DNA of 64,000 nucleotides, from positions 20,770,001 through 20,834,000 of the forward strand of contig JBHGNT010000001.1 in NCBI GenBank assembly GCA_043228905.1, read 5' to 3'. A program made the position numbers and the translations under genes. Position 1 is the first letter of the stretch. Each line of letters begins with the position of its first letter. The notes below the pieces were generated by a model. It was not told the DNA's origin. It saw nothing but the letters and a program-made list of their open reading frames with translations, and ran no database searches. The stretch is from Azolla caroliniana. Lineage: Eukaryota > Plantae > Polypodiophyta. Shown here in pieces: positions 4,758-31,965 of this stretch.

Positions 4758-6419
4758 TCAATTAGATTCCTCCATGTCTTCATTTACATCTGCCCTATTA
4801 TGTTCATCGTCGAGGTAATCGAGGTCAGGATCCTTGTCTTGTGTTTTCTTGAAAATCTTTACTCTTTTTCCCGCAATGGGTACGGCCAACCTTGATTCGT
4901 CTAGTTCTGCAAGGTGGTATGTGGCATTATCATTGGCACTTGTCACCACATACGGCCCGAACCATCTTCTTTTGAACTTCCTTGTTGTACTGTGTTGATT
5001 GTCAAGGGTGCTGTCATAAACCAAAACCCAATCCCCTTCTTCAATCTTCTTGGGACGAAGTCGATGCGTGTTGTCGAACCGAACTTTGTTCTTTACTCGG
5101 GCTGCCTCCATCATCTTTCGTGCTTTTTCTAAATCTTCAGGTCTTCTTTCAAGTTGCCTTATCCGCGCCGCTAATAACTCTTCGTGGCTCATCACGTTCT
5201 CCCACGGTATCGCTACCCATGAGGCGATCGTCCTTTCGATGGGCATAATCGGCTTTTGTCCATACATAAGCTCCGTCGGCATATACCCTGTCACCGAGCT
5301 ATGTGTCGTTCTATCAGCCCACAAGGCATAGGGTAATAGTCGTGGACAATTCCCGACTTGACCGTTGCATGCCCGTACGATGGCTTTAACGATAGGTCCA
5401 TGCCCTCGCTCGATCTTCCCATTCGCTTCTGGATTGTGGGCAGTCGTGAGGGAGAGCTTCACACCTAGTCTTTCGAAGAGCTCCGTCGCTTCATGCGCGT
5501 CCAACTCCCCTCGGTTGGCCACTATCTTCCCTACACATCCATATCGGCAAACAACCTCTTCAAGCAGAAATTTGCAAACGGCTAAAGTCGTCTTATTTGT
5601 CAAGGCTCGTCCTTCCACTTGATTTGTCAAGTCTTCCCTTGCCAGCATTAAGTACTTCATTTGTCCTACTCCCATTGGCATCGAGACCAGATCCACCATC
5701 CATTTGAAGTGTATGGTGAGTGGGTATGTCGGCTGTAACTCATCATGATGACGTATATTGGAATATATTTGGTTAGTTTCGCATGTGGACACGAAATGGA
5801 GTACATCTTTGTACATGCTTGGCCACCAATACTTCTCCTTCAACTTTTCGAACGTTGCCCATGTTCCTCTATGACCTGCCCAAGCACTCTCGTGGAATTC
5901 GGTCATCAACGTCTCTTGCTCTTCTTTCTTTACCACCACTCGACGTGGTATTCCTGTCCTTCTTTTTGGATGTCGCCAAAGGAATCCTCCCTTCAACAAG
6001 TATCGGTAAGCTTTCTTTCGGATTCGTAGGGCCTCCTCCTTTGTCAACGAAGCATTTGTCGTCAATGTTCTTAGGAATCTACTAATGAGTAACCACTCTC
6101 CTTCGTACTCGTTCTCGTTGAAGGCGTGGAGGGTTTGCGTGTCCTGGTCTTCTGCCGACAATCGAGCCATCTTGAAGAAGTCAAGGGCGACATCTTCATC
6201 TTCTGAAACCATGTTACTTCCATTTGAAAATCTTGCCCTCGATAGCATGTCAGCCATGGTGTTCTTCTTCCCTGCAATGTGACGGATCTCTGGGTTTAAA
6301 GACTTGATGTAGGCGATCCACCTTAGCATAGCAAGATCTGGGGTCGCACATCCCGAGACCATTCCGAGAATTGGGAGACAATCTGTTTCTATTATCACTT
6401 CTGACCCGATTCCTTTCAT
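4758..6419 (-). CDS. RNase H C-terminal remnant plus intact Ty3/gypsy integrase (553 aa ORF created by the deletion)
   Basis: FHESAWAGHRG..C zinc-finger region, WMVDLV, HNPEANGKIERGHG catalytic core, RRWFGPYVV GPY/F motif; uninterrupted ORF. Confidence 0.85.
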   Translation of the reverse strand: MKGIGSEVIIETDCLPILGMVSGCATPDLAMLRWIAYIKSLNPEIRHIAGKKNTMADMLSRARFSNGSNMVSEDEDVALDFFKMARLSAEDQDTQTLHAFNENEYEGEWLLISRFLRTLTTNASLTKEEALRIRKKAYRYLLKGGFLWRHPKRRTGIPRRVVVKKEEQETLMTEFHESAWAGHRGTWATFEKLKEKYWWPSMYKDVLHFVSTCETNQIYSNIRHHDELQPTYPLTIHFKWMVDLVSMPMGVGQMKYLMLAREDLTNQVEGRALTNKTTLAVCKFLLEEVVCRYGCVGKIVANRGELDAHEATELFERLGVKLSLTTAHNPEANGKIERGHGPIVKAIVRACNGQVGNCPRLLPYALWADRTTHSSVTGYMPTELMYGQKPIMPIERTIASWVAIPWENVMSHEELLAARIRQLERRPEDLEKARKMMEAARVKNKVRFDNTHRLRPKKIEEGDWVLVYDSTLDNQHSTTRKFKRRWFGPYVVTSANDNATYHLAELDESRLAVPIAGKRVKIFKKTQDKDPDLDYLDDEHNRADVNEDMEESN

Positions 6420-8576
6420 GATTGGCTCGCACCGTTAGGAATTGGACCGATCTTTGGTTGTCAAGAATCTTTATTCGTGTGAAGGCTGCTCCATTATCGA
6501 ACACTTTGGTCTCCATCCGAGATGATGTGATATAAGGTTGCCCTAGTATGACAGGATGCGACGCCGATTCTTGTACGAAGAAGTGTTGATCCATCTCCAC
6601 ATCCCTGATTGTGACTTTGATATTGGGACAAGCTCCGTACAAGTCCTCCGTAGACTTTGTTGCCGCGCGAATCTTCCATCCGTGGTTTGTATTGATTGGC
6701 CATCTTCCTTTTTTGTAGAAGTCGGTTGACATGAGGTTGATCTCCGAGCCATGGTCGATCAAGGCTACCACGGTCTCTTTCTTCTCCCCGATCTTCACTG
6801 GCGTCTCCGTTGTCGCTTGTGCCCAATGAGGTCGAGTATAGTGGCTGTCCACCATATTTCATCGACTTCGTCTCTTGCCATCGTTATGGCATTCGTTTTT
6901 GCTTTTTGCGGCTTCTCTTCTTCCTCGTCCGATTGTTGTCTCTTTCTCTTTACAAGGTCCATGATCGTGTCATGGAACTCCTTCTTCGTAATGCCAAGCA
7001 ATTCCCTCAAGGACAAAGTTACGTGGCTATCAAGAACTCGTTCTTCGAGAATCTTCTTTAGGTCCATCGTCTGCTCTATGTCCGACCTTAGCTTATAGGT
7101 AGGTATAGTCCTTGTCCTCCGAGCGGGGTCTTCGACACCAACCTTCATGGGCCGAACCATTTCTTCAACTCGTATGCTCGGCTCCCCTTTTCGGCTTGAT
7201 TCTCGTTCCTCCATTTGTAAAGGCCGACTCGTCTCCGCATCGTCCTTCTTTTTCGCATTCCTTGTTTCATGTCTTTTTAATGGGCCTTGCTCTTCTATTC
7301 TCTTTCTCTTTTCTTCGACGAACACCTCGTGGTTGTCGCACATCACCTCTGCGAGTATGGTGTTGTTGTCCAACGGATCCGACCACCCGGTTATGCTTTG
7401 CACACTTCGGTCCGCAAGCTCTACCTCGTTCGATGTGACTTTTCCGTTCTTCTCATATTCAAGAACGGAAGTCCAAAACTTTGCTCCCGCTCTAGCAGCT
7501 TCAGTCTTGTCTTTCCCGACTCTTATTCCGGCCGACGCAACATAGTGCATCGCATCCACATGAGTTGCATCGACATCCTCCATAGATTTCTTCATTCCTC
7601 CTCTTCCGAAATTCACCCGTAGGGGTCTTCTAGTCTTGCTTGAGCAGATCATGTTGTCCTCTATGTATACGATATTTTGTCGAATCGCCTCTCGAAGGCT
7701 CGCACAATCCCTTCTCATGTGGTCCATGCTATCGCACCACACGCATCTAAAAGGTTCTTTTCCTTTAGGGCCCCGACGATTCATGTTGGCTAGCGTGACC
7801 TTCTCAAACTTCTTCGCTAGCTCTTCAATGATGTCTTCATCAATCTTCTTTTCTTCCACGTTACTTTGTCTTGGTGGCTCAGCTACTTTCGGTGGTCTTG
7901 CTTTCTCCGTGGTAGTCGGTCCCGTCAAGTCGGTGTCATCAACCCATTGGCGACGCTTGTCGAGCCTATTGCATGCCCGCTTCATCGCGATCCAGTCCGC
8001 TACGAGCCCATTTGCTTGGGTATCATCTTCGAGAAGAGTCCCCAACTCCCATCTATCCTTTATGTCCACCGCCTTCAAGGAGTACAAAGTCTTGTCCTCA
8101 TCAAGCAACACTTGGTCCGTATTGGGGAGACGACTAAACATCTGGTCGAATTCGTCGTACACCCTCAAGACGCTCGTCTTCTTATTCTTCTTCTCTATCC
8201 ACTTCATCAGGGCATGTCAAGTCATCCTCTTTGAGTCTTCTGTCACGAACTCTGCTTGTATCATTTTCTCGAACTCGGACCGTGTTGTCTTACCTTCTTG
8301 AAGCTCGATGACTTGTCTTTGGATGTTGTTGGCGACAACTCTCTTGAGGCTTACGATTTGACGTGCCTCGAACACGTCCCTTTGATTCATCTCCCTTCTA
8401 TATGCATCAAGGAACTTCATAACATTCCTTCCATCGAATTGGCCCTCGAGCTCTACGACACGATCGACAGCCTTCTCCACGCTCGCGTCGTTGTCCTGAG
8501 ATCTCATCATTTGCTCGACGATTAGCATCATCCTTTCGAGCTCTCCCGCTTGGTTGCTTGAGGACGCCTTCTCCAA
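6410..8576 (-). pseudogene. gag-protease ORF of the gypsy element (one stop near 8217, one frameshift near 6855)
   Basis: FDGRNVMKFL gag N-terminus, CVWCDSMDHMRRDC knuckle, ALIDHGSEINLM aspartic protease, ILGQPY. Confidence 0.85.
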
Positions 8577-12545: not shown

Positions 12546-12970
12546 AAAGGGGACGTGTGCAAAGGAACATGGGAGGCGATGATCAAGAAGGAACTCGATA
12601 TATGTACCACTTTTTTTTCTCTAGTTTCGTCTTTTTTTTGGGGGGGGCATTCTCTTTTGCTCCCTCCTATTCCTTGCGGAAAAAACTCTAAGCCTAATTA
12701 TCTTAGAGAAGAAAATCCTAATTTTCCTATGAAATCCATATCTCCGTTTCTTCTAATCTATTATCTATTAATCTCCGTAACCTTAAACTTTTGTAATCCC
12801 AATCTTGGGATAGATTGTAATCTTTCTTTCCCTTTGTTAATGAAATTTGTCGATCTTTCTCATTTCCATTAATTCTTTAATATAAACATATGAATTTGAT
12901 ATGCTCTGGTCAGAGGCCCCTGGGTCCTGCCTCAAGTTCACGTATCCTTGTCGTATTTTCGCAACATCTT

Positions 12971-12988
12971 TAGTGAACCCGACGTGAA
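12971..12988 (+). promoter_or_regulatory. Primer-binding site, tRNA-Trp
   Basis: TAGTGAACCCGACGTGAA 4 nt after LTR end (...GCAACA 12966); one G>A change from TGGTGAACCCGACGTGAA. Confidence 0.8.
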
Positions 12989-13934
12989 ACGAGGCGGCAG
13001 GAGGATATCAAGTGCAACGATGGCTTCGAAAAGCGGAACTCAAAGAGAGGAATTAACGAAAGACATGGTGTCCATTGTGGAATACATGCTGAAGGCGAGA
13101 GATCGAGGGGCTTGAATCGACAAAGTTGTTGATCGAACGGTGGAGATATCTGGACGATTTGGTGGCAAGAATATCACGGATTTCCTTGCAACCTATCGGA
13201 ACGAGATGCAAGAGAGGGATGTCTATGATTTGAAACAAATTTCTAGTTGTCGGGAACTCAACGCTCCTTATGCATAAAGCTCGGCCACAACCGAGATTCT
13301 TTTCATACACAGAAAACAGGAAACGAAAACATGACTCAAAGGAGAGTAAGATACACAGGAGGTTTACGTGGAAAACCCCAAACTAGGGGAAAAACCACGG
13401 CAGCCCACAGGCTGCAAACTGTCACTATGTAAGAATGTACAAAACAGTGAGTTCACGGAGGCAACGACCTCGGACTCACGATCTTCGCCACAGGCGGCGG
13501 TTACAACAGAGGCAACGACCTCGTCTCTCTCTCTCGCTCTCTGTATAGTTACGCACTCTCTCTTCTTCTTGCACCAACAAGAAAAATAACAACATCATAA
13601 TATTAGTTTGCCCTAAGTCATATTTATACTAATATGACTTTTCGGCTATTTACAAATGTAGCCTCGATGGGCTCTTAGAAACATATTTACGAATATGTCT
13701 CTTCCTCTGGTTCACACCAGGCTTGCATCATCCGGCTCTCCGTAGCCGGGTACTCCTCATCCGGTTCACACCGGGCCTGCACCATCCGGCTCTCCGTAGC
13801 CGGGTACTCCTCATCCGGTTCACATCGGGTCTGTATCATCCGGCTCTCCGTAGCCAGGTACTCCTCATACGGTCTTCGGCACTGATCTTCTCCCTTCCCA
13901 TCCGGAGGGACCTGTCTCCCAACAAACTCCCCCT

Positions 13935-16900
13935 TCACTCCGGCATGGGGTGTCCTACCAGTCCGATTCTCTTCCGGCATGCGTCCAGCTTGTCGGGTGT
14001 CAGCACTTTGGTCAGCATATCTGACCCGTTCTCGGTCGTGTGGATCTTTGTCAGTGCGAACTCCTGGTCATCTACTCTTTCCCGGATCCAGTGATACCTC
14101 CGCTGGATATGCTTCGTCTGGGAATGGTAGGCCGCATTCTTAGCAAGGTGGATGGCACTTTGACTGTCGCAGTAGAGTCGGTATTCCTCTTGCCGGATAC
14201 CGAGCTCTCCGATGAAGTCCTTCATCCATAATATTTCCTTGCCGGCTTCCACAGCTGCCATGTACTCCGCCTCCGTGGTTGACAATGCAACCGTCTTCTG
14301 CAGCCTCGACTGCCACGAAACAGCTCCCCCTGCATATGTCATCACATACTTGGATGTAGACCGGCTGGTATCCACATCAGCCGACATGTCCGAATCGGTG
14401 AAACCATCCAGTTGAGGTTTTCCGGAGCCGAATCGGAGACACATATTTGAAGTGCCCTTCAAATACCGGAGTATCCATTTGACCGCGTTCCAGTGCTCCT
14501 TGCCGGGATTGCTCATAAACCGGCTCACAACCCCTACTGCATATCCTATATCCGGTCGGGTACACACCATTGCGTACATCAAGCTCCCGACGGCAGAGGC
14601 ATATGGGATCTTCATCATTTCTGCCTTCTCTGCTTTCGTCTTCGGGCTTTGCTGGCCGGATAGCTTGCAGTTTGCCGGAAGTGTCGATCCGACCGGTTTC
14701 GCTTCTGACATGTTGAACCGGTGAAGCACCTTTGTCACATACTTCTCCTCTGACAACCATAATTGCTTCTTTGACCGGTCCCGAATGATGTGCATCCCCA
14801 GCATCTGTCTTGCCGGACCCAAGTTTTTCATTGAGAAGGTCCGGTTGAGAGCCTTCTTCAGCATCCGTATTTTGACTTGGTCACGTCCGACGATCAACAT
14901 GTCATCCACGTACAGAAGGAGTATCAGGAAGTCGCCTCCTTTAAACTTCTTCACAAACACGCAGTGATCGGCCTGCGTCTTGTGGTACCCTTGATCGGTC
15001 ATCAAGAAGTCGAACTTCCGGTACCATTGACGGGGAGCCTGCTTCAGTCCGTACAGGCTCTTCTTCAACCGGCATACCAGGTGCTCCTTCCCTTTCTCCA
15101 CGAATCCTTCCGGTTGCTGCATGTAAATCTCCTCTTCGAGGTCGCCGTGAAGGAATGCCGTCTTCACGTCCAGCTGCTCTACCTCAAGGTTCATGCTTGC
15201 TGCTATACTCAACACCGTCCGGATGGAGGTCATCTTTACTACCGGGGCAAATATCTCGTCGAAGTCCACGCCCTTCTTCTGCTGGAACCCCTTCACCACT
15301 ATCCTGGCTTTGTATCTCGGGGGGTTGCCGGCATCTCCCGGTTTCAGCTTGTACACCCACTTGTTTCGGAGTGCCCGCTTTCCTTTCCGCAACTCCACCA
15401 ATTCGTATGTATGGTTCTCATGCAGGGAATCCATCTCGTCCTGCATGACACTTAACCATTTTCGGCTGTGGGTGTCTTCCTTCACTTCTTCGAAGCTTTC
15501 CGGCTCCCCTCATCGGTCAGCAGCACATGCTCTGCATCCGGAAATCTCCGGGGGCCCCTTCTCACTCTGAGAGGATATCTACGTCTTTGGGCTTCGGTAG
15601 CCGGCTCCTCCATTTGCTCTTCATCCGAATCCGATTCGGGGTCTTGGCCGGTTCCGGTTTCAACTTCCTCTACTTCTTCTTCTGCCGGTTTGGTATCCTC
15701 ACCGTAACCGGCTGGTTCCTCGAGTGCTAACCGATCTCTTGCCGGTTGGGTCTGCTCATCGTAGAGTCTATCCTTACCAGTCGACTCAGAGTTCATTATC
15801 TTCTTCTCCGACTCCCAGTCAGCGAGTGTCTTGTCCTCCATGAAGATAATATCTTGACTTTGAAATACCTTCTTGTCGACCAGGTCCCACACCCGGTAGC
15901 CGAACTCATTGTCGTCGTAACTGAGGAATATGCATGGCCGGGTCTTCGGATCTAGTTTTCCTCTCCGGTCCTTAGCTACATGCACGTACGCGAGACACCT
16001 GAACACCATCAGATGCCGGTAGGACACTTCCTTACCGGTCCATACTCTGTGTGGCGTGTCTCTGTCCAGGGGTACTGAGGGTGATCTGTTTATCACGTAT
16101 GTCGCCGTCGACAGTGCCTCAGTCCAAAACTTCTTGGGTAGGTTTGCATGCGCTAGCATACTCCGGATCCTCTCCATTATGGTCCGGTTCATCCTCTCGG
16201 CCAGTCCGTTTAGTTCCGGCGTCTTCGGCACGGTAAATTCGAGCCGGATTCCCTTCGAGCGGCAGTACTCCTCGAACTGCCCCCGGTACTCTCCTCCGTT
16301 ATCTGCTCGAACCGCCTTCAGCTTCCGGCCTGTTTCTCTTTCCACTCTCGCGTGGAGCTCTTTGAAGACGGATAACACCTGATCCTTTGTCTTCAACGGT
16401 GTGGCCCACAGCTTCCGGCTGTGGTCATCTATGAACGTCACGAAGTACTGCGCTCCGGCATGTGACTTCGTGTCTACTTGACACACATCCGTATGCACCA
16501 ACTCCAGTGGTGCATTACGTCTCATCGGTGGCCTTGGTCGGAAGGAGGTCCGGTTCTGCTTACCGGCCAGACAATCAGTGCACTTCTCTAAGTGCACGTT
16601 CTTCACTGGAATGAGGTTGTCGTCTGCAAGCCTCTTCATCCCCTTCTCGCTCATATGACACAGCCTCTTGTGCCACAGCTCACCGGTAGTGTCGGATGCC
16701 ACGTTCACTTCTTCCGGACATAACCGGGCATTCATTAGGTACAGTGTGTTTACCTTCCGGGCCCGAGCCACAATCAGGCTCCCTTTGCTGAACTTCATGA
16801 CACCATTCCGGATGCTACCCGTGTAGCCTTCATCATCTAGCCGACCGACTGATATCAGGTTTAGACGAACCTCCGGAACGTGTCGGACATCCTTCAGCAG

Positions 16901-17995
16901 CAACTTGCATCTGGTTGGTGTTGTCAGCCACATGTCTCCTATGCCGACAATTTGGCATGTACCTTCATTCCCCATCCGGACACAGCCGTGGTCACCGGCT
17001 GAGTAGGATGCGAAGCATTTCCGGTCCGGGGTAAGGTGGAACGACGCTCCGGAGTCTACCACCTAGGTCATCTCGTCGCCGGCAAGGTTTATCTCACTCT
17101 CCTCGGTGATGAGGATCAACTCCTCTTCACTTGCCGCGATTGTCGTCGTTCCCTTCCGGTCTGGCCCCCTCCGGTCTTTACCGTTCCGGTCTTTACCGTT
17201 TCGGTCCGGGGTTTGCTTCGAATCGGTACCGTCGGTTTCCTTGTCTTTACGGAAATGCCGACAGTTCTTTTGGAAGTGTCCCGGCTTGCCGCAATAGAAG
17301 CAAGTAGGCCTCCCCCTTGACTTTGACCGTGTCCCCGACTTCTCCCGGTTCTGGGGACTACGGTTTCTCTGTCTTCCGCGTTCCGATTCGGTAAGGAGCG
17401 CTTTGGAGTCGGAGCTCGTATCTTTATCCTTCCGACGTGCCTCCTCATCTAGCAAGCTCGACTTTACTCTTGCTAGGGATAACCGTTTTCCTTCCGGCCC
17501 AGCGTTGCCCAAAGTGACAACCAACGTCTCCCAGCTATCCGGGAGGGAACCGAGCAGGAGTAGCGCAAGTACCTCATCGGCGAGAGGTACTTCCAATGAA
17601 GTTGCCTGGTGGATCAGCCCCTGGAAGGCATTCATGTGCTCCGCCATGCTGGAGCCATCTTGGTACCGGAGTCTTACTAGCTTCCGGAATACCGACACCT
17701 GATTGACAGCATTTTTGTTCTTGAACATTATGCTGATCTTCTCCTAGAGCTCATGAGCCTTGCTCTCTTCATTGAAGTTGTTGTACAGGCTCATGTCGAT
17801 GAAGCACCGTATGTACGCCGTTGTCTTCATGTGCATCACCTCCCATATCGCGGCGTCGATTTTGTCCGGTCTCTTGTCCCTGAACTGAACCGGCAGCCAA
17901 AGGTCTTTAACCACGAGCATGTCCCTCATCTTCGACTTCCACACTGAGTAGTTGGAACCGGTGAGCTTGAACATGCCGCCAAACGATTCGTCCAT
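13935..17995 (-). pseudogene. copia gag-pol polyprotein with two TGG>TAG stops (~17744, ~17063) and a 1-bp frameshift (~15500)
   Basis: ORF track pieces are colinear with the intact polyprotein at 19118-23191; VDSGAS, HTDVC..FIDD, LLYVDDML, FTDSDM..EAEY..CDSQSA motifs. Confidence 0.95.
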
Positions 17996-18468
17996 TTTCT
18001 GTGTCGTTTCGCTCTGATACCACTTGTCGGGAACTCAACGCTCCTTATGCACAAAGCTCGGCCACAACCGAGATTCTTTTCATACACAGAAAACAGGAAA
18101 CGAAAACACGACTCAAAGGAGAGTAAGATACACAGGAGGTTTACGTGGAAAACCCCAAACTAGGGGAAAAACCACGGCAGCCCACAGGCTGGAAACTGTC
18201 ACTATGTAAGAAATGTACAAAACAGTGAGTTCACGGAGGCAACGACCTCGGACTCACGATCTTCGCCACAGGCGGCGGTTACAACAGAGGCAACGACCTC
18301 GTCTCTCTCTCTCTCTCTCTGTATAGTTACGCACTCTCTCTTCTTCTTGCACCAACAAGAAAAATAACAACATCATAATATTAGTTTGCCCTAAGTCATA
18401 TTTATACTAATATGACTTTTCGGCTATTTACAAATGTAGCCTCGATGGGCTCTTAGAAACATATTTAC

Positions 18469-21400
18469 TGTTGGGATTTCGGTCCCTTTCGGATGGGATG
18501 GTCGGATATCGGAGATGAATGCCGACAAGCCCGGTTTCGGTTTCGGATCCGGATGACGAAGACCCCGGCTTCGGTGCCGGATGACGAATGTACCCGGAGA
18601 GCGATCCGGATGCAGGGACATATCCGTGAATATGTTCGCTACGAGCCCCCTGAGGCTATAGTTGTAAATAGCCCAAAGTCATATAAGTATAAATATGACT
18701 TAGGGCAAACAGTTTTCCTGTTGCTTCTCATTTTTCTGTTTTTCCACTTTGGAGGAGTGAAGAGAGAGCAGCCGTGAGAGAGAGAAAGAGAGAGAGCGCG
18801 AGAGAGAAAGAGGTAGACGCCTCTGTGTATTTCCGCCGCCTGTGGCGAGGACAGCGAGCTCAAGGTCGTCGCCTTGGAGCTCGTCATTGTATACTTCTCT
18901 GTATAGTGTTGTTTGGAGTCTTGTACTCCCGTGGTTTTTCCCCGTTTAGGGTTTTCCACGTTAATCCTTGTGTACTCGCGTTTCTTCGTTTTGTTTCTAC
19001 GTGTGTTTCCTATTTTCTGCTCCATTGATCCGCGATTAATCGGTTGTGGCCGAGATAAGAAGGTGGATAGAAGGGTCTATTCCTTACAAACTGGTATCAG
19101 AGCGACTGTTGCAGAAAATGGAAGGCGGCGGCAGCGGGCAGCCGATGATGATGGTGCTGAATGCACAGAATTACGCCGACTGGAAGATCAAGATGGAGGA
19201 TCTTCTGATTGTTCGGGACCTGTACGAACCGATTGACAGGTCGGAAATACCGAAGGGGGTACTTGAGTCGGAGTGGAAGCTCCTGAACCGGAAAGCCGTA
19301 GCGACGATCCGACAATATGTCGACGTAAGCGTCCTGCAACATGTGGCGAACGACACCAACGCATACGAGATGTGGAAGAAGCTGTCTGGCCTCTATGAGA
19401 GGAAGAATGCGTTGAACCGGACCTCCCTGATGAGGAAGATTGTGAATCTCAAGTATCGGGACGGCGAGAGTATGGTGGAACACGTAAGCACGTTCATGGG
19501 ATTCGTGAACCAGCTTGCGGCGATCAAGTTCCCGTTGGAGGATGCAATGCAAGCCATCATCCTGATGTGTACATTGCCGGAAAGCTGGGAGAACTTGGTG
19601 GTGACTCTCAGCACCTCGTGCACCGAAGATAACTTGTCCTTACAAACTGTAAAGACAAGTATTCTGAATGAAGAAGCGCGTCGGAGAGATAAGGAACCGG
19701 CCTCCGACCCGAAGATGCTGTTTACCGAATCGGATCGGGGAAGACAATGGAACCGGAGTCCGCAAAGACGGGAGAAGTCGGGGACCCGGTCGCAGTCAAG
19801 AGGAAGGCCCACATGCTTCCACTGTGGGAAGCCGGGGCACTTCCGAAAGAATTGTCGGCATTACCGAAAAGACAACGGAGCCGACGACACCGACTCGAAG
19901 AAGTCACCGGAGAGAAACGGTGCATACCGGGGAGCCACGGACCGGAGAGGTTCGGATCGGCGAGGGCAAGACCGGAAAGGAACAACGGCACTCGCGGCAA
20001 GTGAGGAAGAAATCATGCTCATCACCGAAGAAGGTGAGCTAAACGTTGCCGGCGATGAGACGACCTGGGTGGTCGATTCCGGAGCATCGTTCCACCTGAC
20101 CCCGGAGAGAAGATACTTCTCATCCTACACAGCCGGCGAGCATGGCTGTGTTCGGATGGGAAATGAAGGTACGTGCCGGATTGCCGGCATAGGAGACGTG
20201 TGGTTGACAACCCCGACCGGATGCAAAATGCTGCTGAAAGATGTCCGACACGTTCCGGAGGTCCGATTGAACCTGATTTCGGCCGGGAGGCTAGATGATG
20301 AAGGCTACACGGGTAGCATCCGGAACGGTGTCATGAAGTTCAGCAAGGGGAGCTTGATAGTGGTTCGGGCCCGGAAGGTCAACACACTGTACCTGATGAA
20401 TGCCCGGTTATGTCCGGAAGAGCTGAATGTGGCAGCCGACACTGCCGGTGAGCTGTGGCACAAAAGACTGTGCCACATGAGTGAGAAGGGGATGAAGAGG
20501 CTTGCAGAAGACAACCTCATCCCAGTGAAGCACGTGCACCTGGAGAAGTGCACCGATTGCCTGGCCGGTAAGCAGAACCGAACCTCCTTCCACTCAAGGC
20601 CACCGACGAGACGTAGCGCACCATTGGAGTTGGTGCACACTGACGTGTGTCAGGTAGAGACGAAGTCACATGGCGGAGCCCAGTACTTCGTAACATTCAT
20701 CGATGATCATAGCCGAAAACTGTGGACGGCACCGATGAAGACAAAGGACCAAGTGTTGTCCGTCTTCAAAGAACTCCATGCGAGAGTGGAAAGAGAATCC
20801 GGCAAGAAGCTGAAAGCGATACGAGCGGATAACGGAGGGGAATACCGAGGGCAGTTCCAGGAGTACTGTCGCTCGAAGGGAATCCGACTCGAGTTTACTG
20901 TGCCGAAGACGCCGGAACTGAACGGGCTGGCCGAGAGGATGAACCGGACCATAATGGAGCGGGTCCGGAGTATGCTGGCGCATGCGAAATTACCCAAGGG
21001 GTTTTGGGCTGAGGCAATGTCGACGGCGACATACGTGATAAACAGATCACCCTCAGTACCTTTGGACGGAGACACGCCGCAGAAAGTGTGGACTGGTAAG
21101 GAAGTGTCCTACCGGCATCTGAAGGTGTTCGGGTGTCTCGCATACGTGCATGTGGCAAAGGACCGGAGAGGAAAGCTAGATCCGAAGACCCGGCCATGCA
21201 TATTCCTCGGTTACGGCGACGACGAGTTCGGCTACCGAGTATGGGACCCGGTCGACAAGAAGATATTCCGGAGTCGTGATATCATCTTCATGGAGAACAA
21301 GACGCTCGCCGACTGGGAGTCGGAGAAGAAGATGAAGAGCTCCAAGTCGACCGGTGAGGATCAACTCTACGAGGAGCAGTCCCGACCGGCAAGGGACCGG

Positions 21401-23821
21401 TTAGCACTCGAGGATCCGGCCGAAGACGGTGAAGACACAGAACCGGCCGAAGAAGATGAAAATGATACCGGAACCGGCCCCGATCCCGAAATGGTCTCGG
21501 ATGAAGAAGAATCGGAAGAACCGGTTACCGAAGCTCCGGAACGGAGATATCCTCTAAGAGAGAGAAGGGCCCCCCGGAGATTTCCGGAACCAGAGCACGT
21601 GCTGCTAACCGACGAGGGGGAGCCGGAGAGCTTTGAAGAAGCGAAGCATGACACCCAGAGCCGCAGGTGGTTGAGTGCCATGCAGGACGAGATGGATTCC
21701 CTGCATGAGAACCACACATATGAACTTGTGGAGTTGCCGAAGGGAAAGCGGGCACTTCGAAACAAGTGGGTGTTCAAGCTGAAACCGGGAGATGCCGGAA
21801 ACCCCCCGAGATACAAAGCCAGGATCGTGGTGAAGGGGTTTCAGCAAAAGAAGGGCGTCGACTTCGACGAGATATTTGCCCCGGTAGTGAAGATGACCTC
21901 CATCCGGACGGTGCTGAGCATAGCGGCAAGCATGGACCTCGAGGTAGAACAGATGGACGTGAAGACGGCATTCCTTCACGGCGACCTCGATGAAGAGATC
22001 TACATGCAGCAACCGGAAGGATTCGAGAAGGAAGGGAAGGAGCACCTGGTATGCCGGTTGAAGAAGAGCCTTTACGGACTGAAGCAGGCTCCCCGGCAAT
22101 GGTACCGGAAGTTCGACTCCTTCATGACCGACGAAGGGTACCTCAAAACGCAGTCCGACCACTGCGTGTTTGTGAAGGAGTTCGAAGGAGGAGACTCTCT
22201 AATACTCCTCCTGTACGTGGACGACATGTTGATCGTCGGACGGGACCAGGTCAAGATACGGATGCTGAAGAAGGCTCTTCACCGAACCTTCTCAATGAAG
22301 GACCTGGGTCCGGCGAGGCAAATACTAGGGATGCACATCATCCGGGACCGGAAGAAGAAGCAGTTGTGGCTGTCACAGGAGAAGTACGTGACGAAGGTGC
22401 TTCACCGGTTCAACATGTCGGAAGCAAGACCGGTCGGATCGACCCTCCCGACAAACTGCAAGCTGTCCAGCAAGCAAAGTCCCAAGACAAAGGCTGAGAA
22501 GGAGGATATGATGAAAGTGCCGTATGCCTCAGCCGTCGGGAGCTTGATGTACGCCATGGTGTGTACGAGACCGAACATCGGATATGCAGTCGGAGTGGTG
22601 AGCCGGTACATGAGCAATCCCGGCAAAGAGCATTGGAACGCGGCCAAGTGGATACTCCGATACCTGAAGGGCACGGCAAACGTGTGCCTCCGATTCGGCC
22701 CCGGTAAACCCGAACTCGACGGTTTCACCGATTCGGATATGTCGGCTGATGCAGATACCAGCCGGTCCACATCAGGGTATGTGATGACGTATGCAGGGGG
22801 AGCTGTTTCGTGGCAGTCGAGGCTGCAGAAGACGGTTGCGTTGTCAACCACGGAGGCGGAGTACATGGCAGCTGTTGAAGCCGGCAAGGAAATAATATGG
22901 ATGAAGGACTTCATTAGAGAGCTCGGTATCCGGCAAGAGGAGTACCAACTCTACTGCGACAGTCAGAGTGCCATCCACCTTGCGAAGAACGCAGCCTATC
23001 ACTCCCGGACGAAACACATCCAGCGTAGATACCACTGGATCCGGGAAAGGATAGAAGACAAGGAGTTCGTGCTGACAAAGATCCACACGGACGAGAACGG
23101 GTCGGATATGCTGACCAAGGTGCTCACACCCGACAAGCTGGAAGCATGCCGGAAGAGGATCGGATTGGAAAGACATCCCATGCCGAAGTGAAGGGGGAGT
23201 TTGTTGGGATTTCGGTCCCTTTCGGATGGGATGGTCGGATATCGGAGATGAATGCCGACAAGCCCGGTTTCGGTTTCGGATCCGGATGACGAAGACCCCG
23301 GCTTCGGTGCCGGATGACGAATGTACCCGGAGAGCGATCCGGATGCAGGGACATATCCGTGAATATGTTCGCTACGAGCCCCCTGAGGCTATAGTTGTAA
23401 ATAGCCCAAAGTCATATAAGTATAAATATGACTTAGGGCAAACAGTTTTCCTGTTGCTTCTCATTTTTCTGTTTTTCCACTTTGGAGGAGTGAAGAGAGA
23501 GCAGCCGTGAGAGAGAGAAAGAGAGAGAGCGCGAGAGAGAAAGAGGTAGACGCCTCTGTGTATTTCCGCCGCCTGTGGCGAGGACAGCGAGCTCAAGGTC
23601 GTCGCCTTGGAGCTCGTCATTGTATACTTCTCTGTATAGTGTTGTTTGGAGTCTTGTACTCCCGTGGTTTTTCCCCGTTTAGGGTTTTCCACGTTAATCC
23701 TTGTGTACTCGCGTTTCTTCGTTTTGTTTCTACGTGTGTTTCCTATTTTCTGCTCCATTGATCCGCGATTAATCGGTTGTGGCCGAGATAAGAAGGTGGA
23801 TAGAAGGGTCTATTCCTTACA
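18469..23821 (+). mobile_element. Intact young Ty1/copia element, 620-bp LTRs (18469-19088, 23202-23821), TSD TTTAC
   Basis: TTTAC at 18464-18468 and 23822-23826; PBS TGGTATCAGAGC 19092-19103; PPT 23190-23199; LTRs look identical by eye and give identical ORF-track translations. Confidence 0.98.
19118..23191 (+). CDS. Ty1/copia Gag-Pol polyprotein (1357 aa; gag, CCHC, PR, IN, RT, RNase H)
   Basis: Single uninterrupted ORF from the first ATG after the PBS; CFHCGKPGHFRKNC, WVVDSGAS, HKRLCH..CTDC, DDE core, YVDD, RNase H. Confidence 0.97.
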   Translation: MEGGGSGQPMMMVLNAQNYADWKIKMEDLLIVRDLYEPIDRSEIPKGVLESEWKLLNRKAVATIRQYVDVSVLQHVANDTNAYEMWKKLSGLYERKNALNRTSLMRKIVNLKYRDGESMVEHVSTFMGFVNQLAAIKFPLEDAMQAIILMCTLPESWENLVVTLSTSCTEDNLSLQTVKTSILNEEARRRDKEPASDPKMLFTESDRGRQWNRSPQRREKSGTRSQSRGRPTCFHCGKPGHFRKNCRHYRKDNGADDTDSKKSPERNGAYRGATDRRGSDRRGQDRKGTTALAASEEEIMLITEEGELNVAGDETTWVVDSGASFHLTPERRYFSSYTAGEHGCVRMGNEGTCRIAGIGDVWLTTPTGCKMLLKDVRHVPEVRLNLISAGRLDDEGYTGSIRNGVMKFSKGSLIVVRARKVNTLYLMNARLCPEELNVAADTAGELWHKRLCHMSEKGMKRLAEDNLIPVKHVHLEKCTDCLAGKQNRTSFHSRPPTRRSAPLELVHTDVCQVETKSHGGAQYFVTFIDDHSRKLWTAPMKTKDQVLSVFKELHARVERESGKKLKAIRADNGGEYRGQFQEYCRSKGIRLEFTVPKTPELNGLAERMNRTIMERVRSMLAHAKLPKGFWAEAMSTATYVINRSPSVPLDGDTPQKVWTGKEVSYRHLKVFGCLAYVHVAKDRRGKLDPKTRPCIFLGYGDDEFGYRVWDPVDKKIFRSRDIIFMENKTLADWESEKKMKSSKSTGEDQLYEEQSRPARDRLALEDPAEDGEDTEPAEEDENDTGTGPDPEMVSDEEESEEPVTEAPERRYPLRERRAPRRFPEPEHVLLTDEGEPESFEEAKHDTQSRRWLSAMQDEMDSLHENHTYELVELPKGKRALRNKWVFKLKPGDAGNPPRYKARIVVKGFQQKKGVDFDEIFAPVVKMTSIRTVLSIAASMDLEVEQMDVKTAFLHGDLDEEIYMQQPEGFEKEGKEHLVCRLKKSLYGLKQAPRQWYRKFDSFMTDEGYLKTQSDHCVFVKEFEGGDSLILLLYVDDMLIVGRDQVKIRMLKKALHRTFSMKDLGPARQILGMHIIRDRKKKQLWLSQEKYVTKVLHRFNMSEARPVGSTLPTNCKLSSKQSPKTKAEKEDMMKVPYASAVGSLMYAMVCTRPNIGYAVGVVSRYMSNPGKEHWNAAKWILRYLKGTANVCLRFGPGKPELDGFTDSDMSADADTSRSTSGYVMTYAGGAVSWQSRLQKTVALSTTEAEYMAAVEAGKEIIWMKDFIRELGIRQEEYQLYCDSQSAIHLAKNAAYHSRTKHIQRRYHWIRERIEDKEFVLTKIHTDENGSDMLTKVLTPDKLEACRKRIGLERHPMPK

Positions 23822-24106
23822 TTTACGAATATGTCTTTTCCTCTGGTTCACACCGGGCCTGCACCATCCGGCTCTCCGTAGCCGGGTACTCCTCATCCGG
23901 TTCACACCGGGCCTGTCCGTAGTTGGGTACTCCTCATCCGGTTCACACCGGGCCTGCACCATCCGGCTCTCCGTAGCCGGGTACTCCTCATCCGGTTCAC
24001 ACTGGGTCTGTATCATCCGGCTCTCCGTAGCTAGGTACTCCTCATACGGTCTTCGACACTGATCTTCTCCCTTCCCATCCGGAGGGACCTGTCTCCCAAC
24101 ACTAGT

Positions 24107-27100
24107 TTCAAGCAGGTGGTGGAACCAGGAATCCATGAGCATGTCATAGAGATCCAAAACGAGCACGCAACTTGGGCGAAGTTCGAGAAGGTGCTTCTTG
24201 CTGAAAACATGCTTGAAGATGCATCACAGATGACTCAACATACGTTAATGATTTGGATCGAGAAGAAAGGAAAGAATTTGTGTGCATTGGGAGTATATGC
24301 GGAATTCGACTAGATGTACAACCGACTTCCAAGTTCTCGATGGAGATAAAGTCATGTTATCCCTGAAGGCGGTGGATACAAAAGACTGGCGAGAATTGGG
24401 TGGTTTTTTGGAGGACGAAACGCAACCAAATGGCTTGGTAGCGGACTAGGCGGAGGTGCAGAAGGCTTGTAGCCGTCTTGATAAGCGTCGACAATGGCAA
24501 GAGGAAACTGATATGGAGAATCTACAAACATGGAGGAGGAAGGCACCGGTGACGGTCAAGCCTAACAAGCCGATCAACAATTTCGGCAAGAAAGCGATGG
24601 AGGACTCTATAATCGAAGAGCTCTCCAAGAAATTTGAAGTGGTATCGCTGGCCAACTTAGGTCGATGCGGGCCCAAGGGAAAATAAGCATATAGATGTGT
24701 GTGGTGCGACAGCTTTGAGCACTCACGAAGGGAATGCGTGGACTTGCAAGACGCGATTCACAAGAATGTCGTCTATTTGGATGGAAACATGATCCACTCA
24801 AGTGAGACTAGGAAGCCACTACAAGTGAACTTCAGAAGAGGCGGGCTGAAAAAGATTGTAGAAGAGGAAAATGCAAGGCATGTGGAACCTGTGCACTATG
24901 CCACATCGACCGGGATACGAGTTGGAAAAGAAAATCTAAAGACGATCAAGCCAGAAGCTGGGTTTTCGCCGACGATCTTTGAGTGTGAGAAAAAAGGCAA
25001 AATCGATTCGGAGGATTTAAAACTTGTTGATCGGAATGTGCGATGAGTTACCGGATGGTCAGATCCAGTCGATGATAACACAAGCTTTGCGGAGGTAGAG
25101 TGCGACAACTATGAAGCTCTTGTCGAAGAGAAGAGGAAACGAACCGGTGAAGAAGATGGCACATCAAAGTGTCCCAACACGAGGAACTCAGGGAAAGAAG
25201 GGCAAGTCCAACCTACGCCACGAAAAGAGGTTGGAGAAACAAGCATGAAGCCCGGTGGATCGAGCCAACCTGCTCGGATGGAAGTCGAAGAATCAACGAA
25301 GAAAGGAAAAGAACGAGTGGCGTTGACTTACAAGCTAAGGTCGGATATAAAACAAACAACTGATTTGCAAAAGGTCCTTGAGGAGAAAGTTTTAGACAGT
25401 CATGTCGACCTTACTTTGAGAGAACTACTTGGGATTGCGAAGAAGGAGTTCCATGATACTATCGTGGACCTTATTAAGCAGAATCGGCAACAATCTGATG
25501 AAGAGGAGGTGAAAACAAGTGCCATAACCATGGCAATATCGGAAGAGGAAGAAGAAGAAGTGGTGGCGGATAGCCATTACTCTCGAGTTCATTGGGCAAG
25601 AGCGACAATGGAGACGCTGGTGAAGATCGGGGAGAAGAAAGAGACCGTAGTAGCCTTGATTGACCATGGCTCAGAGATCAACCTCATGTCGACCGAGTTC
25701 TACAAGAAAGGAAGATGGTCGATTAATAAAAACCATGGATGGAAGATTCGAGCGGCGACAAAGTCTATGGAGGACTTGTACGGAGCTTACCCCAACATTA
25801 AAGTCACGATCGGGGATGTGGAGATTGATCAACACTTCTTCGTGCAAGACTCGGCTTCGCATCCTATCATCCTAGGACAACCGTATATAACATCGTCTCG
25901 GATGGAGACCAAGGTGTTCGATAAAGGAGCAGACTTCGCGTGCGTCAAGAGTCTTGATAGTAAAAGATTTGTTCAATTCCTAACGGTGCGAGCTAATCAC
26001 GAAAGGAACTGAGATAGCCTTGGAGGGGAATCCTCGGATTTTTAAAGCGGACTATTGAAGCATGGGGCACAAATAGTCCGAGCAATCATAAGTCCCCACA
26101 AGGAAGCAGAGTGCGTGGATTGCAAGGAGAAGCAACATGCGTCACACCTAGCGGCGCATGCAAACTAAGACTACTCAACAAGAAGGAAAAGTGTCGGATA
26201 CAAGACTTCGAGAAGGTGCTACAAGACGAAAGCATAATCGAAGAAGAAGAATTTGTGTCTCATATTCTGGAGGAAGCCTCATTTAATGACACCATCGACG
26301 AAATCGAGGAAGTCGTGGACTTGAGCTATCCTCACCATCAACATGTGATTTCGGTTAACTCCGTCAACATGTACACTATCATCGATGAATATCATCGAAG
26401 CATCTTGATGAAGGAAACCGAAGTCAACACAAAATATAAAACCGTGGATAGGAAGATCAAGCCAGTTGCAGTACCACTACCGGAAGATAGCTGGCAAAAG
26501 ATGAAGGAAGTTGCAAAAGATCCAAGCTTAAGGAATCCAAATACAATTGGTCACATCTTCACTAAAGAGACGAAGGGAAAGCTACGAGTTGGAAGGGAGG
26601 ATTTGCTCCTTCCTGAAGAGGAGTGAATGTTCAGCAGAATGCTTGAAAGACATGGGAAGGCTTTCGTACTTTTCCCACATGAAATCGGATGTGCTAATCC
26701 AAGGACGGTAGAACCGATGGTGATCTTCACGGTGCCGCATGTGCCTTGGAATTTGAAACCGATATTGGTTCTGAGAGCACACCTACCAAAGCTGATCGAG
26801 CTCTTAAAGGAGAAGGTGAATATGGGAATTTTGGAACCGCCGAACACTCCTTATTCTAATAGGTGGTTCACGGTGCCGAAGAAGAATGGATCGTTGTGAT
26901 TCATCCAAGATCTCCAACCCGTCAACAAGGTGACAATCCGAAATGCCGGAATTGGTCCAAGCATGGATGAATTTGTCGAAGCCTTCGTAGGAAGATCGAT
27001 CTATTCCATTGGTGATCTCTACTCGGGCTATGACCAGTTTCAGTTGGTTGTCGATAGTAGAGACATAACGACAATGCGGACACCGATCGGGTTGGTGCAG

Positions 27101-29458: not shown

Positions 29459-29979
29459 TCAAAAGTGGAGCCTCACCAAAATTGGCACATACCAGTGGAT
29501 GTGCAGGTTTGGTGGGGGTGAATGTCGTGTGATTCTTCACACACTATGTAAAAAATAATAAAATAATAATTTTAGATTAGATTAATGGCTTGATATGGGA
29601 AGATAGATGTCTTCAAGAGCTTAATAACGCATTTTACTACACATGAAACGGATAAATACGTATTAAATTATGTGAATATGAAGTTGAGAGTATAAGGAAA
29701 ATAGAATTGTGAAATATCCCACATAGATAGGAAACTTTAGGATCCATCTATATAAGCAGATTGAGAACTATTAGTTTTCATCTATGTGTTGAGAGCACAA
29801 AAGGAATGGTTAGACTTGGACCAATTTGTCTACATGGACAAATGTAGCTAAGGAAACCAGAAACTAGAAACCGGATGGAGCTGGTGATTGGATAGAACCG
29901 GCAATCAGAAACCGGATGGAGCTGGCAACTAGAAACCGGAAACCGGACGGAGTTGGCAACAAAGTTGGGAACTGGAACC

Positions 29980-30777
29980 TGTTGGGAGACAGGTCCCTCC
30001 GGATGGGAAGGGAGAAGAACGGTGCAGACCTGGTGAGAACCGGATGAGGAGTCCCCGGCTACGGAGAGCCAGATGGTGCAGACCCGGTGAGAACTGGATG
30101 AGGAGTACCCGGCTACGGAAAGCCGGATGGTGCAGACCCGGTGAGAACTGGATGAGGAGTACCCGGTTACAGAGAGTCGGATGGTGCAGACCCGGTGAGA
30201 ACCGGATAAGGAGTACCCGGTTACGGAGAGCCGGATGGTGCAGACCCGGTGAGAACCGGATGAGGAGTACCCGGCTACGGAGAGTCGGATGGTGCAGACC
30301 CGGTGAGGAATGCTCACCGGATGAAGAGAAATATTCGTAAATATGTTTCTGAGATTCCATCGAGGCTATATTTGTAAATAGCCGAAAAGTCATATTAGTA
30401 TAAATATGACTTAGGGCAAACTTTTAGGTTACTGTTGGTTGTTGTCATATTCTTGTTGGTGCAAGAAAAGAGAGAGTGTGTAACAGTGTACAGAGAGAGA
30501 GACAAAGAGGTCGTTGCCTCTGTTGTAAGCGCCGCCTGTGGTGAGAATCGTGAGCACGAGGTCGTTGTCTCCGTGAACTCACTGTTGTACATTCTAGCAT
30601 AGTGATAGTTTGCAGCCTGTGGGCTGCCGTGGTTTTTCCCTCTTTGGTTTTTCCACGTAAACATCCTGTGCACTCGTTTCTTCTTCGTGTCGTGTTTTAT
30701 TTCCCGTTTTTTTTTGTATGATTCTAAGCTCGGTTGTGGCCGAGCGTTGTGCATAAGGAGCGTTTGAGTTCCTGTCA
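29980..30777 (+). mobile_element. Solo copia LTR inserted in the gypsy 3' LTR
   Basis: Reverse-complement match to LTR 13248-13924; TG...CA; flanks GAACC/GAACT; about 5 copies of a 54-bp repeat. Confidence 0.9.
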
Positions 30778-31086
30778 GAACTGACAACCGACGATCAATC
30801 AGACGGAGTCGGCAATCGGCAATCGGACGGAGGCGGCAATCGACAACTGGACGATGATGGACTGGCAATCGGACGGAGCCAGAGATGAAGTAGGGAACCG
30901 AAACCGGATGACGACGGAACTGGCAACCGGCGGCAATCGAAAGGAGCCGGCAATCGACAACTGTACGGCCACGGAACAAAAACCGGATGTGGACCAGACA
31001 GATCGGATGGGGGACGGTTGAGATGGACGGATGATAGGATCATGCGGCGAATTAAAGTAAAATAAAGTAAAGGTCATGTGGAAGGC

Positions 31087-31285
31087 ATGCAACTAAAGGT
31101 AGAGGTCATGCAACTAAAAGTAAAGGCGAAGAAACTAAAAATGGAGGCCATGCAACTAAAAGTAAAGGCGAAGCAACTAAAAAAGGAGGCCATCCAACTA
31201 AAAGTAAAGGTGAAGCAACTAAAAAAGAAGGCCATGCAACTAAAAATAAAGGCCAAGCAACTAAAAATGGAGGCCAGGCAACAAA
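31087..31285. repeat. 21-bp tandem repeat in gypsy 3' LTR
   Basis: About 9 imperfect copies of GCAACTAAAAGTAAAGGC-NNN. Confidence 0.85.
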
Positions 31286-31965
31286 AAGTGGACGCGTGCA
31301 AAGGAACATGGGAGACGATGATCAAGAAGGAACTCGATATATGTACCACTTTTTTTTTCTCTAGTTTCGTCTTTCTTTTCTTGGAGGGGGGGGGGGGGGG
31401 CATTCTCTTCTGCTCCCTCCCATTCCTTGCGGAAAAAACTCTAAGCCTAATTATCTTAGAGAAGAAAGTCCTAATTTTCCTATGAAATCCATATCTCCGT
31501 TTCTTCTATTCTATTAATCTCCGTAAGTTTAAACTTTTGTAATCCCAATCTTGGGATAGATTGTAATCTTTCTTTCCCTTTGTTAATGAAATTTGTCAAT
31601 CTTTCTCATTTCCATTAATTCTTTAATATAAACATACGAATTTGATATCTTCCGGTCGGAGGTCCTGGGGTCCTGCTTCAAGTTCACGTATCGTTGTCGT
31701 ATTTTCGCGACTCCGGAAAGCTTTGAAGAAGTTAAACACGATACCCATAGCCGAAGTGGTTAAGTGTCATGCAAGAGGAGATGGATTCCTTGCGTGAGAA
31801 CCACACATACGAATTGACCGAGTTGCCAAAAGGGAAGAAGGCACTACGAAATAAGTGGGTATACAAACTTAAGTCAAGAGATGGCGGAAATCCACCTAGA
31901 TGTCACGAACAGGTGGAATGAGGCTAAGTACTAAGAGAGAGCGAGAGCATAAGCAAGATCACAAG

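What the first reader, a model, noticed from the sequence alone, without database searches (positions are those of the whole stretch)
26036..26098. -1 frameshift site with H-type pseudoknot located after the protease
Seen: the gag-protease frame (ignoring one likely CGA>TGA at 26010) ends TCG GAT TTT TAA. The -1 frame is open from there into the RT-side ORF. After a 5-nt spacer comes a perfect 9-bp stem CGGACTATT/AATAGTCCG whose loop TGGGG(C)AC can pair with downstream GTCCCCA. Established: GGAUUUU is a slippery heptamer in plant diantho- and umbraviruses; most Ty3/gypsy elements shift between gag and protease or not at all. Inference: an alpharetrovirus-like Gag-PR / RT-RH-IN expression strategy in a plant retrotransposon.
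Basis: partly seen in the sequence, partly recalled or inferred. Interest (0 to 1): 0.75.

Follow-up and report, generated by a model that had tools for sequence, protein, structure and literature searches.

The report
Frameshift switch in bryophyte retrotransposons
A large group of plant jumping genes (the Phygy retrotransposons) splits its protein code right after the protease at a conserved slippery sequence followed by a predicted RNA knot whose base pairs co-vary, so ribosomes likely slip back one base to make the copying enzymes, and a recently active sister family likely slips back two.

Summary
Observation confirmed and extended to a whole clade. The site lies in a decayed Phygy-type Ty3/gypsy element (NCGN target duplication, tRNA-Trp primer site).

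The Gag-protease frame ends G_GAU_UUU-stop and RT-RH-IN lies in the -1 frame, with a 28-nt overlap. This holds in four families of this genome. Of 62 scorable relatives from public assemblies, 59 are in the -1 frame and none is in frame. Homologous proteins of Physcomitrium, Riccia and Adiantum end at or just after the same Asp-Phe.

All 28 diverged family representatives can form the same H-type pseudoknot. Stem 1 is recovered unaided; 12 of 15 pairs show two-sided changes.

New here: a young sister family keeps the pseudoknot but has AG_GUU_UUU, a spacer one base shorter and pol in the +1/-2 frame, a candidate -2 frameshift.

No RNA or translation data were available, so frameshifting is inferred. 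REXdb lists Phygy ORF layout as not determined; nine paper searches found no report.

The parts
12747..13246 (+). End of the 5' LTR and start of gag of the same element, cut off from the rest by nested insertions (13247-24103)
   Evidence: Collinear with bases 1247-1750 of copy L031; the match resumes at 24104 with base 1749
24104..26045 (+). Gag-protease reading frame (decayed in this copy): CCHC zinc knuckle, DUF4100 region, retropepsin domain with D-H-G at 25662-25670
   Evidence: retropepsin fold by structure search and atlas neighbours
26015..26017 (+). Last stop codon in the pol frame before the site; it limits the overlap to 28 nt
26036..26042 (+). Slippery heptamer G_GAU_UUU (last codons Asp-Phe of Gag-PR)
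   Evidence: intact with its stop in 25 of 29 family A siblings and 22 of 29 family B loci
26043..26047 (+). Gag-PR stop codon TAA and 5-nt spacer
26048..26056 (+). Pseudoknot stem 1, 5' arm
   Evidence: Covariation
26063..26067 (+). Pseudoknot stem 2, 5' arm (UGGGG) in the loop of stem 1
26072..26080 (+). Pseudoknot stem 1, 3' arm
26094..26098 (+). Pseudoknot stem 2, 3' arm (CCCCA) after a 13-nt loop
26018..29458 (+). pol in the -1 frame: linker of about 130 codons, RT, RNase H, integrase (many stops and indels in this copy)
   Evidence: one 1157-codon frame with RVT_1, RT_RNaseH, Integrase_H2C2 and rve in sibling L031
29523..31711 (+). 3' LTR, in pieces around a further insertion
   Evidence: Matches to the L031 LTR at 29523-29798, 31022-31210 and 31507-31711

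Best explanation
This is the Gag-protease / RT-RH-IN junction of a Phygy-type Ty3/gypsy retrotransposon, where a conserved in-phase G_GAU_UUU heptamer followed by a covarying, predicted H-type pseudoknot likely drives a programmed -1 ribosomal frameshift. Shown: two frames offset by -1 with a short overlap; heptamer; covarying stems; open pol-frame linker. Inferred: most ribosomes read Asp-Phe and stop, giving Gag-PR; a minority stall on the pseudoknot 5-6 nt downstream, slip back one base (GAU UUU to GGA UUU) and make Gag-PR-RT-RH-IN. Protease would then be made one-to-one with Gag and only RT and integrase would be rationed. The window copy itself is dead; the signal is a clade-wide trait.
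For: Frames: -1 in 17 of 20 scorable family A loci, 16 of 20 family C and 19 of 20 family D loci, and 59 of 62 scorable assembly loci with none in frame. Heptamer: GG(A/G)UUU(U/C) in phase in 59 of 59. Proteins: 64 of the 120 listed homologues end D-F, 26 end five residues after D/G-F, 4 end G-F or N-F; the residue before is never one of the seven that lack a G-ending codon (0 of 90; background 29%). Structure: pseudoknot in 28 of 28 representatives, mean stacking -28.1 kcal/mol against -9.9 elsewhere in the elements (1 of 266 windows as low) and -6.7 in shuffles (1 of 1120). RNAalifold finds stem 1 unaided, 6 of 8 pairs with two-sided change. Named structure: 85.7% of cells paired against 38-44% when slid, 48 two-sided cells, 0 of 500 shuffles. 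At least 16 separate gains or losses of an alternative Watson-Crick pair on the tree against 2-8 when slid. The peptide over the stems varies, so protein constraint does not explain the pairing. Linker: 2 stops in the pol frame against 244 and 332 in the other frames over 27 families; first Met at codon 6 to 111; dN/dS 0.14-0.56 in 9 of 11 pairs. Motif and spacer fit the -1 rules in PMC5009743.
Against: No translation, proteomic or real RNA data were available. ViennaRNA's best nested fold of the window's 61-mer uses the stem-1 5' arm with the stem-2 3' region, a competing fold. A cruder tree measure (joint changes, pairing not required) separates poorly: 14 against 2-10 when slid. Stem 2 drifts by 1-3 columns in the sequence-only alignment and is only 4-5 bp in some families. 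Most assembly loci come from one accession series and several match this genome's families at 95-100%, so host breadth at DNA level is narrow; fern and liverwort support is at protein level only. Ten longer Riccia gene models join protease to RT, though each lacks the junction and they cut at different places. G_GA gives imperfect P-site re-pairing, so efficiency may be low.
Confidence: 0.86

Rival explanations
1. Splicing joins Gag-PR to RT-RH-IN, as shown for Ogre elements; the overlap and structure are incidental.
For: Ogre splits at the same domain border and uses an intron (PMC6317226). Riccia and Physcomitrium gene models bridge the junction.
Against: No conserved GT donor near the site: at most 11 of 28 representatives at one position, 53 nt upstream. 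The gene models cut at different places, 79 to 195 residues from the G-Q-P-Y motif to the KYK motif, even within one family. The would-be intron stays open and under purifying selection in the pol frame. Splicing would not need an in-phase heptamer.
Confidence: 0.04
2. A -1 frameshift occurs but only the stem-1 hairpin stimulates it, or the structure serves packaging or dimerisation and the heptamer works alone.
For: Stem 1 carries most of the clean covariation; stem 2 is short in some families and drifts in register.
Against: Stem 2 is found in 28 of 28 representatives with different sequences on both arms, for example GCAGGGA/UCCUUGC, GCGGGA/UCUCGC, AUGAGGGU/ACCCUCAU; 4 of its 5 pairs show two-sided changes. 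The fixed 5-6 nt distance from the heptamer fits a frameshift stimulator.
Confidence: 0.07
3. RT-RH-IN is made separately, by reinitiation after the Gag-PR stop or from a subgenomic RNA starting at a downstream AUG.
For: Several families have a Met in an N-S-(I/V)-x-M-Y motif shortly before the KYK motif.
Against: The first Met lies anywhere from codon 6 to 111 after the site and the motif Met is absent in L131 and L141. The codons upstream of it stay open and selected.
Confidence: 0.02
4. RNA-polymerase slippage on the T run changes the transcript instead of the ribosome shifting.
For: A run of five T lies at the site in most families.
Against: The run is short and drops to three or four T in GGATTTC and GGATTTTC families that keep the layout; a downstream RNA pseudoknot at ribosome spacing would be unexplained.
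Confidence: 0.01

Closest known systems
Phygy clade of non-chromovirus Ty3/gypsy elements (REXdb; PMC6317226)
   Same: 4-bp NCGN target duplication, tRNA-Trp primer site, about 8.5 kb, no extra domain found, homologues in Physcomitrium patens.
   Different: REXdb gives the Phygy ORF layout as 'ND'; the two-frame layout, heptamer and pseudoknot are not in the parts I could read. Homologues extend to Riccia and Adiantum.
Retroviral -1 frameshift signals after the protease (pro-pol shift of MMTV, MPMV, HTLV; gag-pol shift of RSV)
   Same: X_XXY_YYZ heptamer, pseudoknot 5-8 nt downstream, RT rationed by a -1 shift (PMC12789967).
   Different: A plant retrotransposon, not a retrovirus; different heptamer; single shift with protease already in the gag frame (this matches RSV by recall only).
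G_GAU_UUU sites of umbraviruses and dianthoviruses (PEMV RNA2, RCNMV)
   Same: Same heptamer type on plant ribosomes, with a stop codon just 3' of it (PMC5009743).
   Different: Their stimulator is a stem-loop pairing at long range; here a compact local H-type pseudoknot is predicted.
Ogre and Retand (Tat clade) plant retrotransposons
   Same: [quoted passage not shown]
   Different: Ogre uses a spacer or intron and Retand a single in-frame stop; here the frames overlap by 13-124 nt.
Arterivirus nsp2 -2/-1 frameshift (PRRSV, simarteriviruses; PMC6675879) - for the sister family only
   Same: G_GUU_UUU, full A-site and poor P-site re-pairing after -2, immediate stop in the -1 frame.
   Different: Arteriviruses need nsp1beta and PCBP bound to a C-rich motif 10 nt downstream; the sister family has a pseudoknot 5 nt downstream.

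Membership tests
Phygy (REXdb) | 4-bp target-site duplication with NCGN motif | tested here: met
   Family A: ACGG on both sides of L031 and L036, CCGT/CCTT at L034. Family E: 5 of 5 identical NCGN pairs.
Phygy (REXdb) | Primer-binding site for tRNA-Trp | tested here: met
   TGGTGAACCCGACGTGA behind the 5' LTR complements the 3' end of a tRNA-Trp(CCA) gene of this genome.
Phygy (REXdb) | Length 7.7-10 kb, order GAG-PROT-RT-RH-INT, no chromodomain or aRH | tested here: met
   L031 is 8466 bp; Pfam shows RVT_1, RNase H, integrase and no chromodomain. aRH was not sought with its own model.
Phygy (REXdb) | RT/RH/INT phylogeny groups with REXdb Phygy sequences | not testable with these tools
   The REXdb sequence file was too large to read; nearest named homologues are Physcomitrium proteins.
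Canonical -1 programmed frameshift signal | Downstream ORF in the -1 frame, overlapping the end of the upstream ORF | tested here: met
   59 of 62 scorable loci, none in frame; 28-nt overlap in the window.
Canonical -1 programmed frameshift signal | In-phase X_XXY_YYZ heptamer within the overlap (G_GA allowed) | tested here: met
   59 of 59 loci; G_GA exception listed in PMC5009743.
Canonical -1 programmed frameshift signal | Conserved 3' structure 5-9 nt downstream | tested here: met
   predicted and covarying, not probed.
Canonical -1 programmed frameshift signal | Measured frameshifting that depends on heptamer and structure | not testable with these tools
   Needs a reporter assay, profiling or mass spectrometry.
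Ogre-type intron between PROT and RT | Non-coding spacer with splice sites between the ORFs | tested here: not met
   Frames overlap; linker open and selected; no conserved donor.
Arterivirus-type -2 frameshift (sister family E) | G_GUU_UUU with downstream ORF in the +1/-2 frame | tested here: met
   Site in 15 of 15 loci; pol in +1/-2 in 12 of 15.
Arterivirus-type -2 frameshift (sister family E) | C-rich CCCANCUCC motif 10 nt downstream with protein trans-activators | tested here: not met
   That stretch holds the pseudoknot stems instead; read by eye.
Rfam frameshift-element families | Match to a curated covariance model | tested here: not met
   No match up to E 5 in 25900-26250.

The most novel reading that the evidence does not exclude
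The Phygy clade is a natural tuning series of one frameshift device. Most families use G_GAU_UUU with six bases to the first G-C pair of the pseudoknot for a -1 shift, while one recently transposing sub-lineage changed to AG_GUU_UUU with five bases and makes RT by a pseudoknot-driven -2 shift with no helper protein. That would be a retrotransposon using -2 frameshifting, with shift direction set by heptamer and spacer length in nature.
Probability: 0.6. Interest if true: 0.87.

Novelty: new variant of a known kind. Interest (0 to 1): 0.73.

Why it matters
A 2016 review of a 2003 survey found only +1-frame cases among plant LTR elements (PMC5009743), and plant elements are described as mostly single-ORF (PMC5580714). 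A clade-wide -1 pseudoknot signal after the protease would fill the 'ND' entry for Phygy and add a strategy in which protease is as abundant as Gag. It would explain why gene predictors place inconsistent introns in these loci. It supplies about 30 natural, covarying pseudoknots that can be assayed on plant ribosomes. The +1/-2 sister family makes a laboratory observation, that shorter spacers favour -2 over -1, directly testable on a natural pair.

Tried and rejected
RNA evidence: no RNA holder listed; the four runs laid were contigs, probably DNA, and say nothing on splicing or expression. IMG/VR: no relative by protein and no match to the motif pattern. Rfam: no match. PDB by sequence: nothing significant; the fold search settled the protease. 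Gao et al. 2003 (PMC1370496) was not held. Earlier scan notes: three look-ups, nothing. A covariance model of the site hits only this site strongly in the window; it was not run genome-wide, so there is no genome-wide count of sites.

Full report
1. Observation. The pol frame has a stop at 26015-17, so any change of frame must happen in 28 nt. The stop at 26010 is private decay: 27 of 29 sibling copies have a sense codon there. Of 47 GGRTTTY heptamers in the window only this one is followed by a perfect 8-bp stem.

2. The element. The window copy is a decayed LTR retrotransposon, split in gag by about 10.9 kb of nested insertions. Sibling L031 has two LTRs, a 725-aa ORF1 and a 1157-codon ORF2 overlapping by 28 nt. 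ORF2 carries RT, RNase H and integrase. ORF1 ends in a retropepsin: Pfam is weak (7 of 30 homologues at E up to 0.1), but atlas neighbours carry aspartic-protease families and the predicted fold matches Ddi1 and retroviral proteases at E 1e-5 to 1e-3 (model mean pLDDT 62.5). NCGN target duplications, a primer site matching this genome's tRNA-Trp and the length fit the Phygy clade as defined in PMC6317226. A tree with REXdb sequences could not be made.

3. Frames across relatives. Family A: pol in -1 in 17 of 20 scorable loci out of 30; the other three have indels and keep the stop or break earlier. Family B (82% DNA identity in the protease): heptamer and stop in 22 of 29 loci, same 28-nt overlap. 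Families C and D: -1 in 16 of 20 and 19 of 20. Public assemblies: 80 loci kept of 171 confirmed; 62 had both sides; 59 are -1, none in frame, 3 are +1/-2. All 59 carry GG(A/G)UUU(U/C) in phase. Among the best 120 of 238 protein homologues, 64 end D-F, 26 end five residues after D/G-F, 4 end G-F or N-F, 2 end V-F-D/Y and 24 are truncated or spliced models. The residue before D/G-F can always be encoded by a G-ending codon (90 of 90; 29% of nearby residues cannot). Named examples come from Riccia, Adiantum and Physcomitrium. These counts are sequences, not independent events, and most assembly loci come from one accession series.

4. Structure. I took 28 representatives under 85% identical over 75 nt. 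They were chosen among loci with a GG-type heptamer; 5 broken loci, 2 truncated loci and 2 own-genome copies with a changed first base were left out. A sequence-only alignment is gap-free from the heptamer through stem 1. RNAalifold recovers 8 pairs, 6 with two-sided changes. For the named pseudoknot 85.7% of cells pair against 38-44% when slid; 12 of 15 pairs and 48 cells change on both sides; shuffles reach these values 0 to 3 times in 500. Enumeration finds an H-type pseudoknot starting 3-8 nt after the heptamer in 28 of 28, far stronger than in 266 other windows and 1120 shuffles, of which one each was as low. On a protein tree, stem 1 needs at least 16 gains or losses of an alternative Watson-Crick pair against 2-8 when slid; a cruder measure gave only 14 against 2-10. 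The overlying peptide varies widely. Against: for the window's own 61-mer ViennaRNA prefers a competing nested fold, and the bulged extension of stem 2 is not general.

5. The linker is translated. From the site to the conserved KYK motif (121-156 codons) the pol frame holds 2 stops in 27 families, the other frames 244 and 332; the first Met falls at codon 6 to 111. dN/dS is 0.14-0.56 in 9 of 11 family pairs, 2 saturated, with no other-frame control run. There is no conserved splice donor. Ten longer proteins joining protease and RT are all Riccia gene models; each lacks the junction and they cut at different places.

6. Mechanism. Shown: layout, heptamer, covarying stems, open linker. Inferred: ribosomes mostly stop after Asp-Phe to give Gag-PR; some stall at the pseudoknot, re-pair GAU UUU to GGA UUU and read on to integrase. 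G_GA heptamers and 5-9 nt spacers are documented (PMC5009743). In five representatives the stop lies five codons further on, inside the structure, so an adjacent stop is not required. Confidence 0.86.

7. The sister family. L117 and L124 form one clade (100/100) and have AG_GUU_UUU, pol in the +1/-2 frame and the same pseudoknot one base closer. The family is in this genome: 40 matches scored, the site in 15 of 15 fetched loci, pol in +1/-2 in 12 and open to KYK in 11. Five of these copies read in full have NCGN duplications, LTRs 96-100% identical and ORF1 open; ORF2 is full length in 4. Linker dN/dS is 0.14. G_GUU_UUU is the arterivirus -2/-1 site, with full A-site and poor P-site re-pairing and an immediate -1 stop (PMC6675879); the -1 frame here also stops at once. 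Shorter spacers raise the -2 share in an HIV cassette (PMC5009743). A +1 shift re-pairs poorly on UUU_G. Caveats: one origin only; the AG|GU could be a splice donor; pol-frame ATGs lie a few codons upstream in both families; mobilisation in trans by -1 families is possible. Probability of -2: about 0.6.

8. Literature. Seen as passages: PMC5009743, PMC6317226 with its Additional file 5 in full, PMC6675879, PMC12786077, PMC11963269, PMC5580714, PMC7466625 (no occurrence of frameshift, ORF or Phygy), PMC12789967. Not seen: Gao et al. 2003 and REXdb Additional files 1 and 3 (too large), which may hold per-element ORF calls for Phygy. Nine searches listed no report of frameshifting in Phygy or of -2 frameshifting in a retrotransposon. 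The library lacks most subscription papers and Repbase notes, so this is not proof of absence. That RSV carries protease in the gag frame is recalled.

9. Verdict. A real, clade-wide recoding signal. It works like the retroviral heptamer-plus-pseudoknot -1 frameshift and meets every sequence-level test for it; the functional test is open. It is a new variant of a known kind: new host group, placed after the protease, with a candidate -2 offshoot. Interest 0.73.

Noticed in passing
G000 family E, e.g. L214-L218; L117, L124: Young sister family with AG_GUU_UUU, the same pseudoknot one base closer and pol in the +1/-2 frame: candidate -2 frameshift.
   Followed up: yes
L112, L126, L128, L139, L147: Sub-group in which the heptamer (G_GAU_UUU/C or G_GGU_UUU) lies five codons before the stop and the stop sits inside the pseudoknot; different sequence, same topology. 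Physcomitrium and Adiantum proteins end the same way.
   Followed up: partly
window 4844-8240 (- strand), junction near 6405: A family B copy with a deletion joining the protease end out of frame to RNase H, removing the frameshift site and RT; the other 29 family B loci fetched do not share it.
   Followed up: partly
window 18469-23821: Very young Ty1/copia element: 620-bp LTRs 100% identical and a single open 1383-codon frame, nested in the insertions that split the Phygy gag.
   Followed up: no
window 13685-13924, 23821-24101, 29955-30366: Arrays of a 54-bp GC-rich repeat next to the LTR-like ends of the nested Copia-related elements.
   Followed up: no
window 25662-25670 and homologues: The protease active-site motif reads D-H-G rather than D-T/S-G across the homologues seen, yet the fold is a retropepsin.
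   Followed up: partly
(atlas neighbours of the protease): Nearest non-plant look-alikes are basidiomycete clusters; whether they share the frameshift layout is unchecked.
   Followed up: no
Riccia and Physcomitrium gene models (P0138-P0147, P0009, P0020, P0052, P0072): Public annotations bridge the frame offset at inconsistent places, probably prediction artefacts caused by the frameshift.
   Followed up: partly
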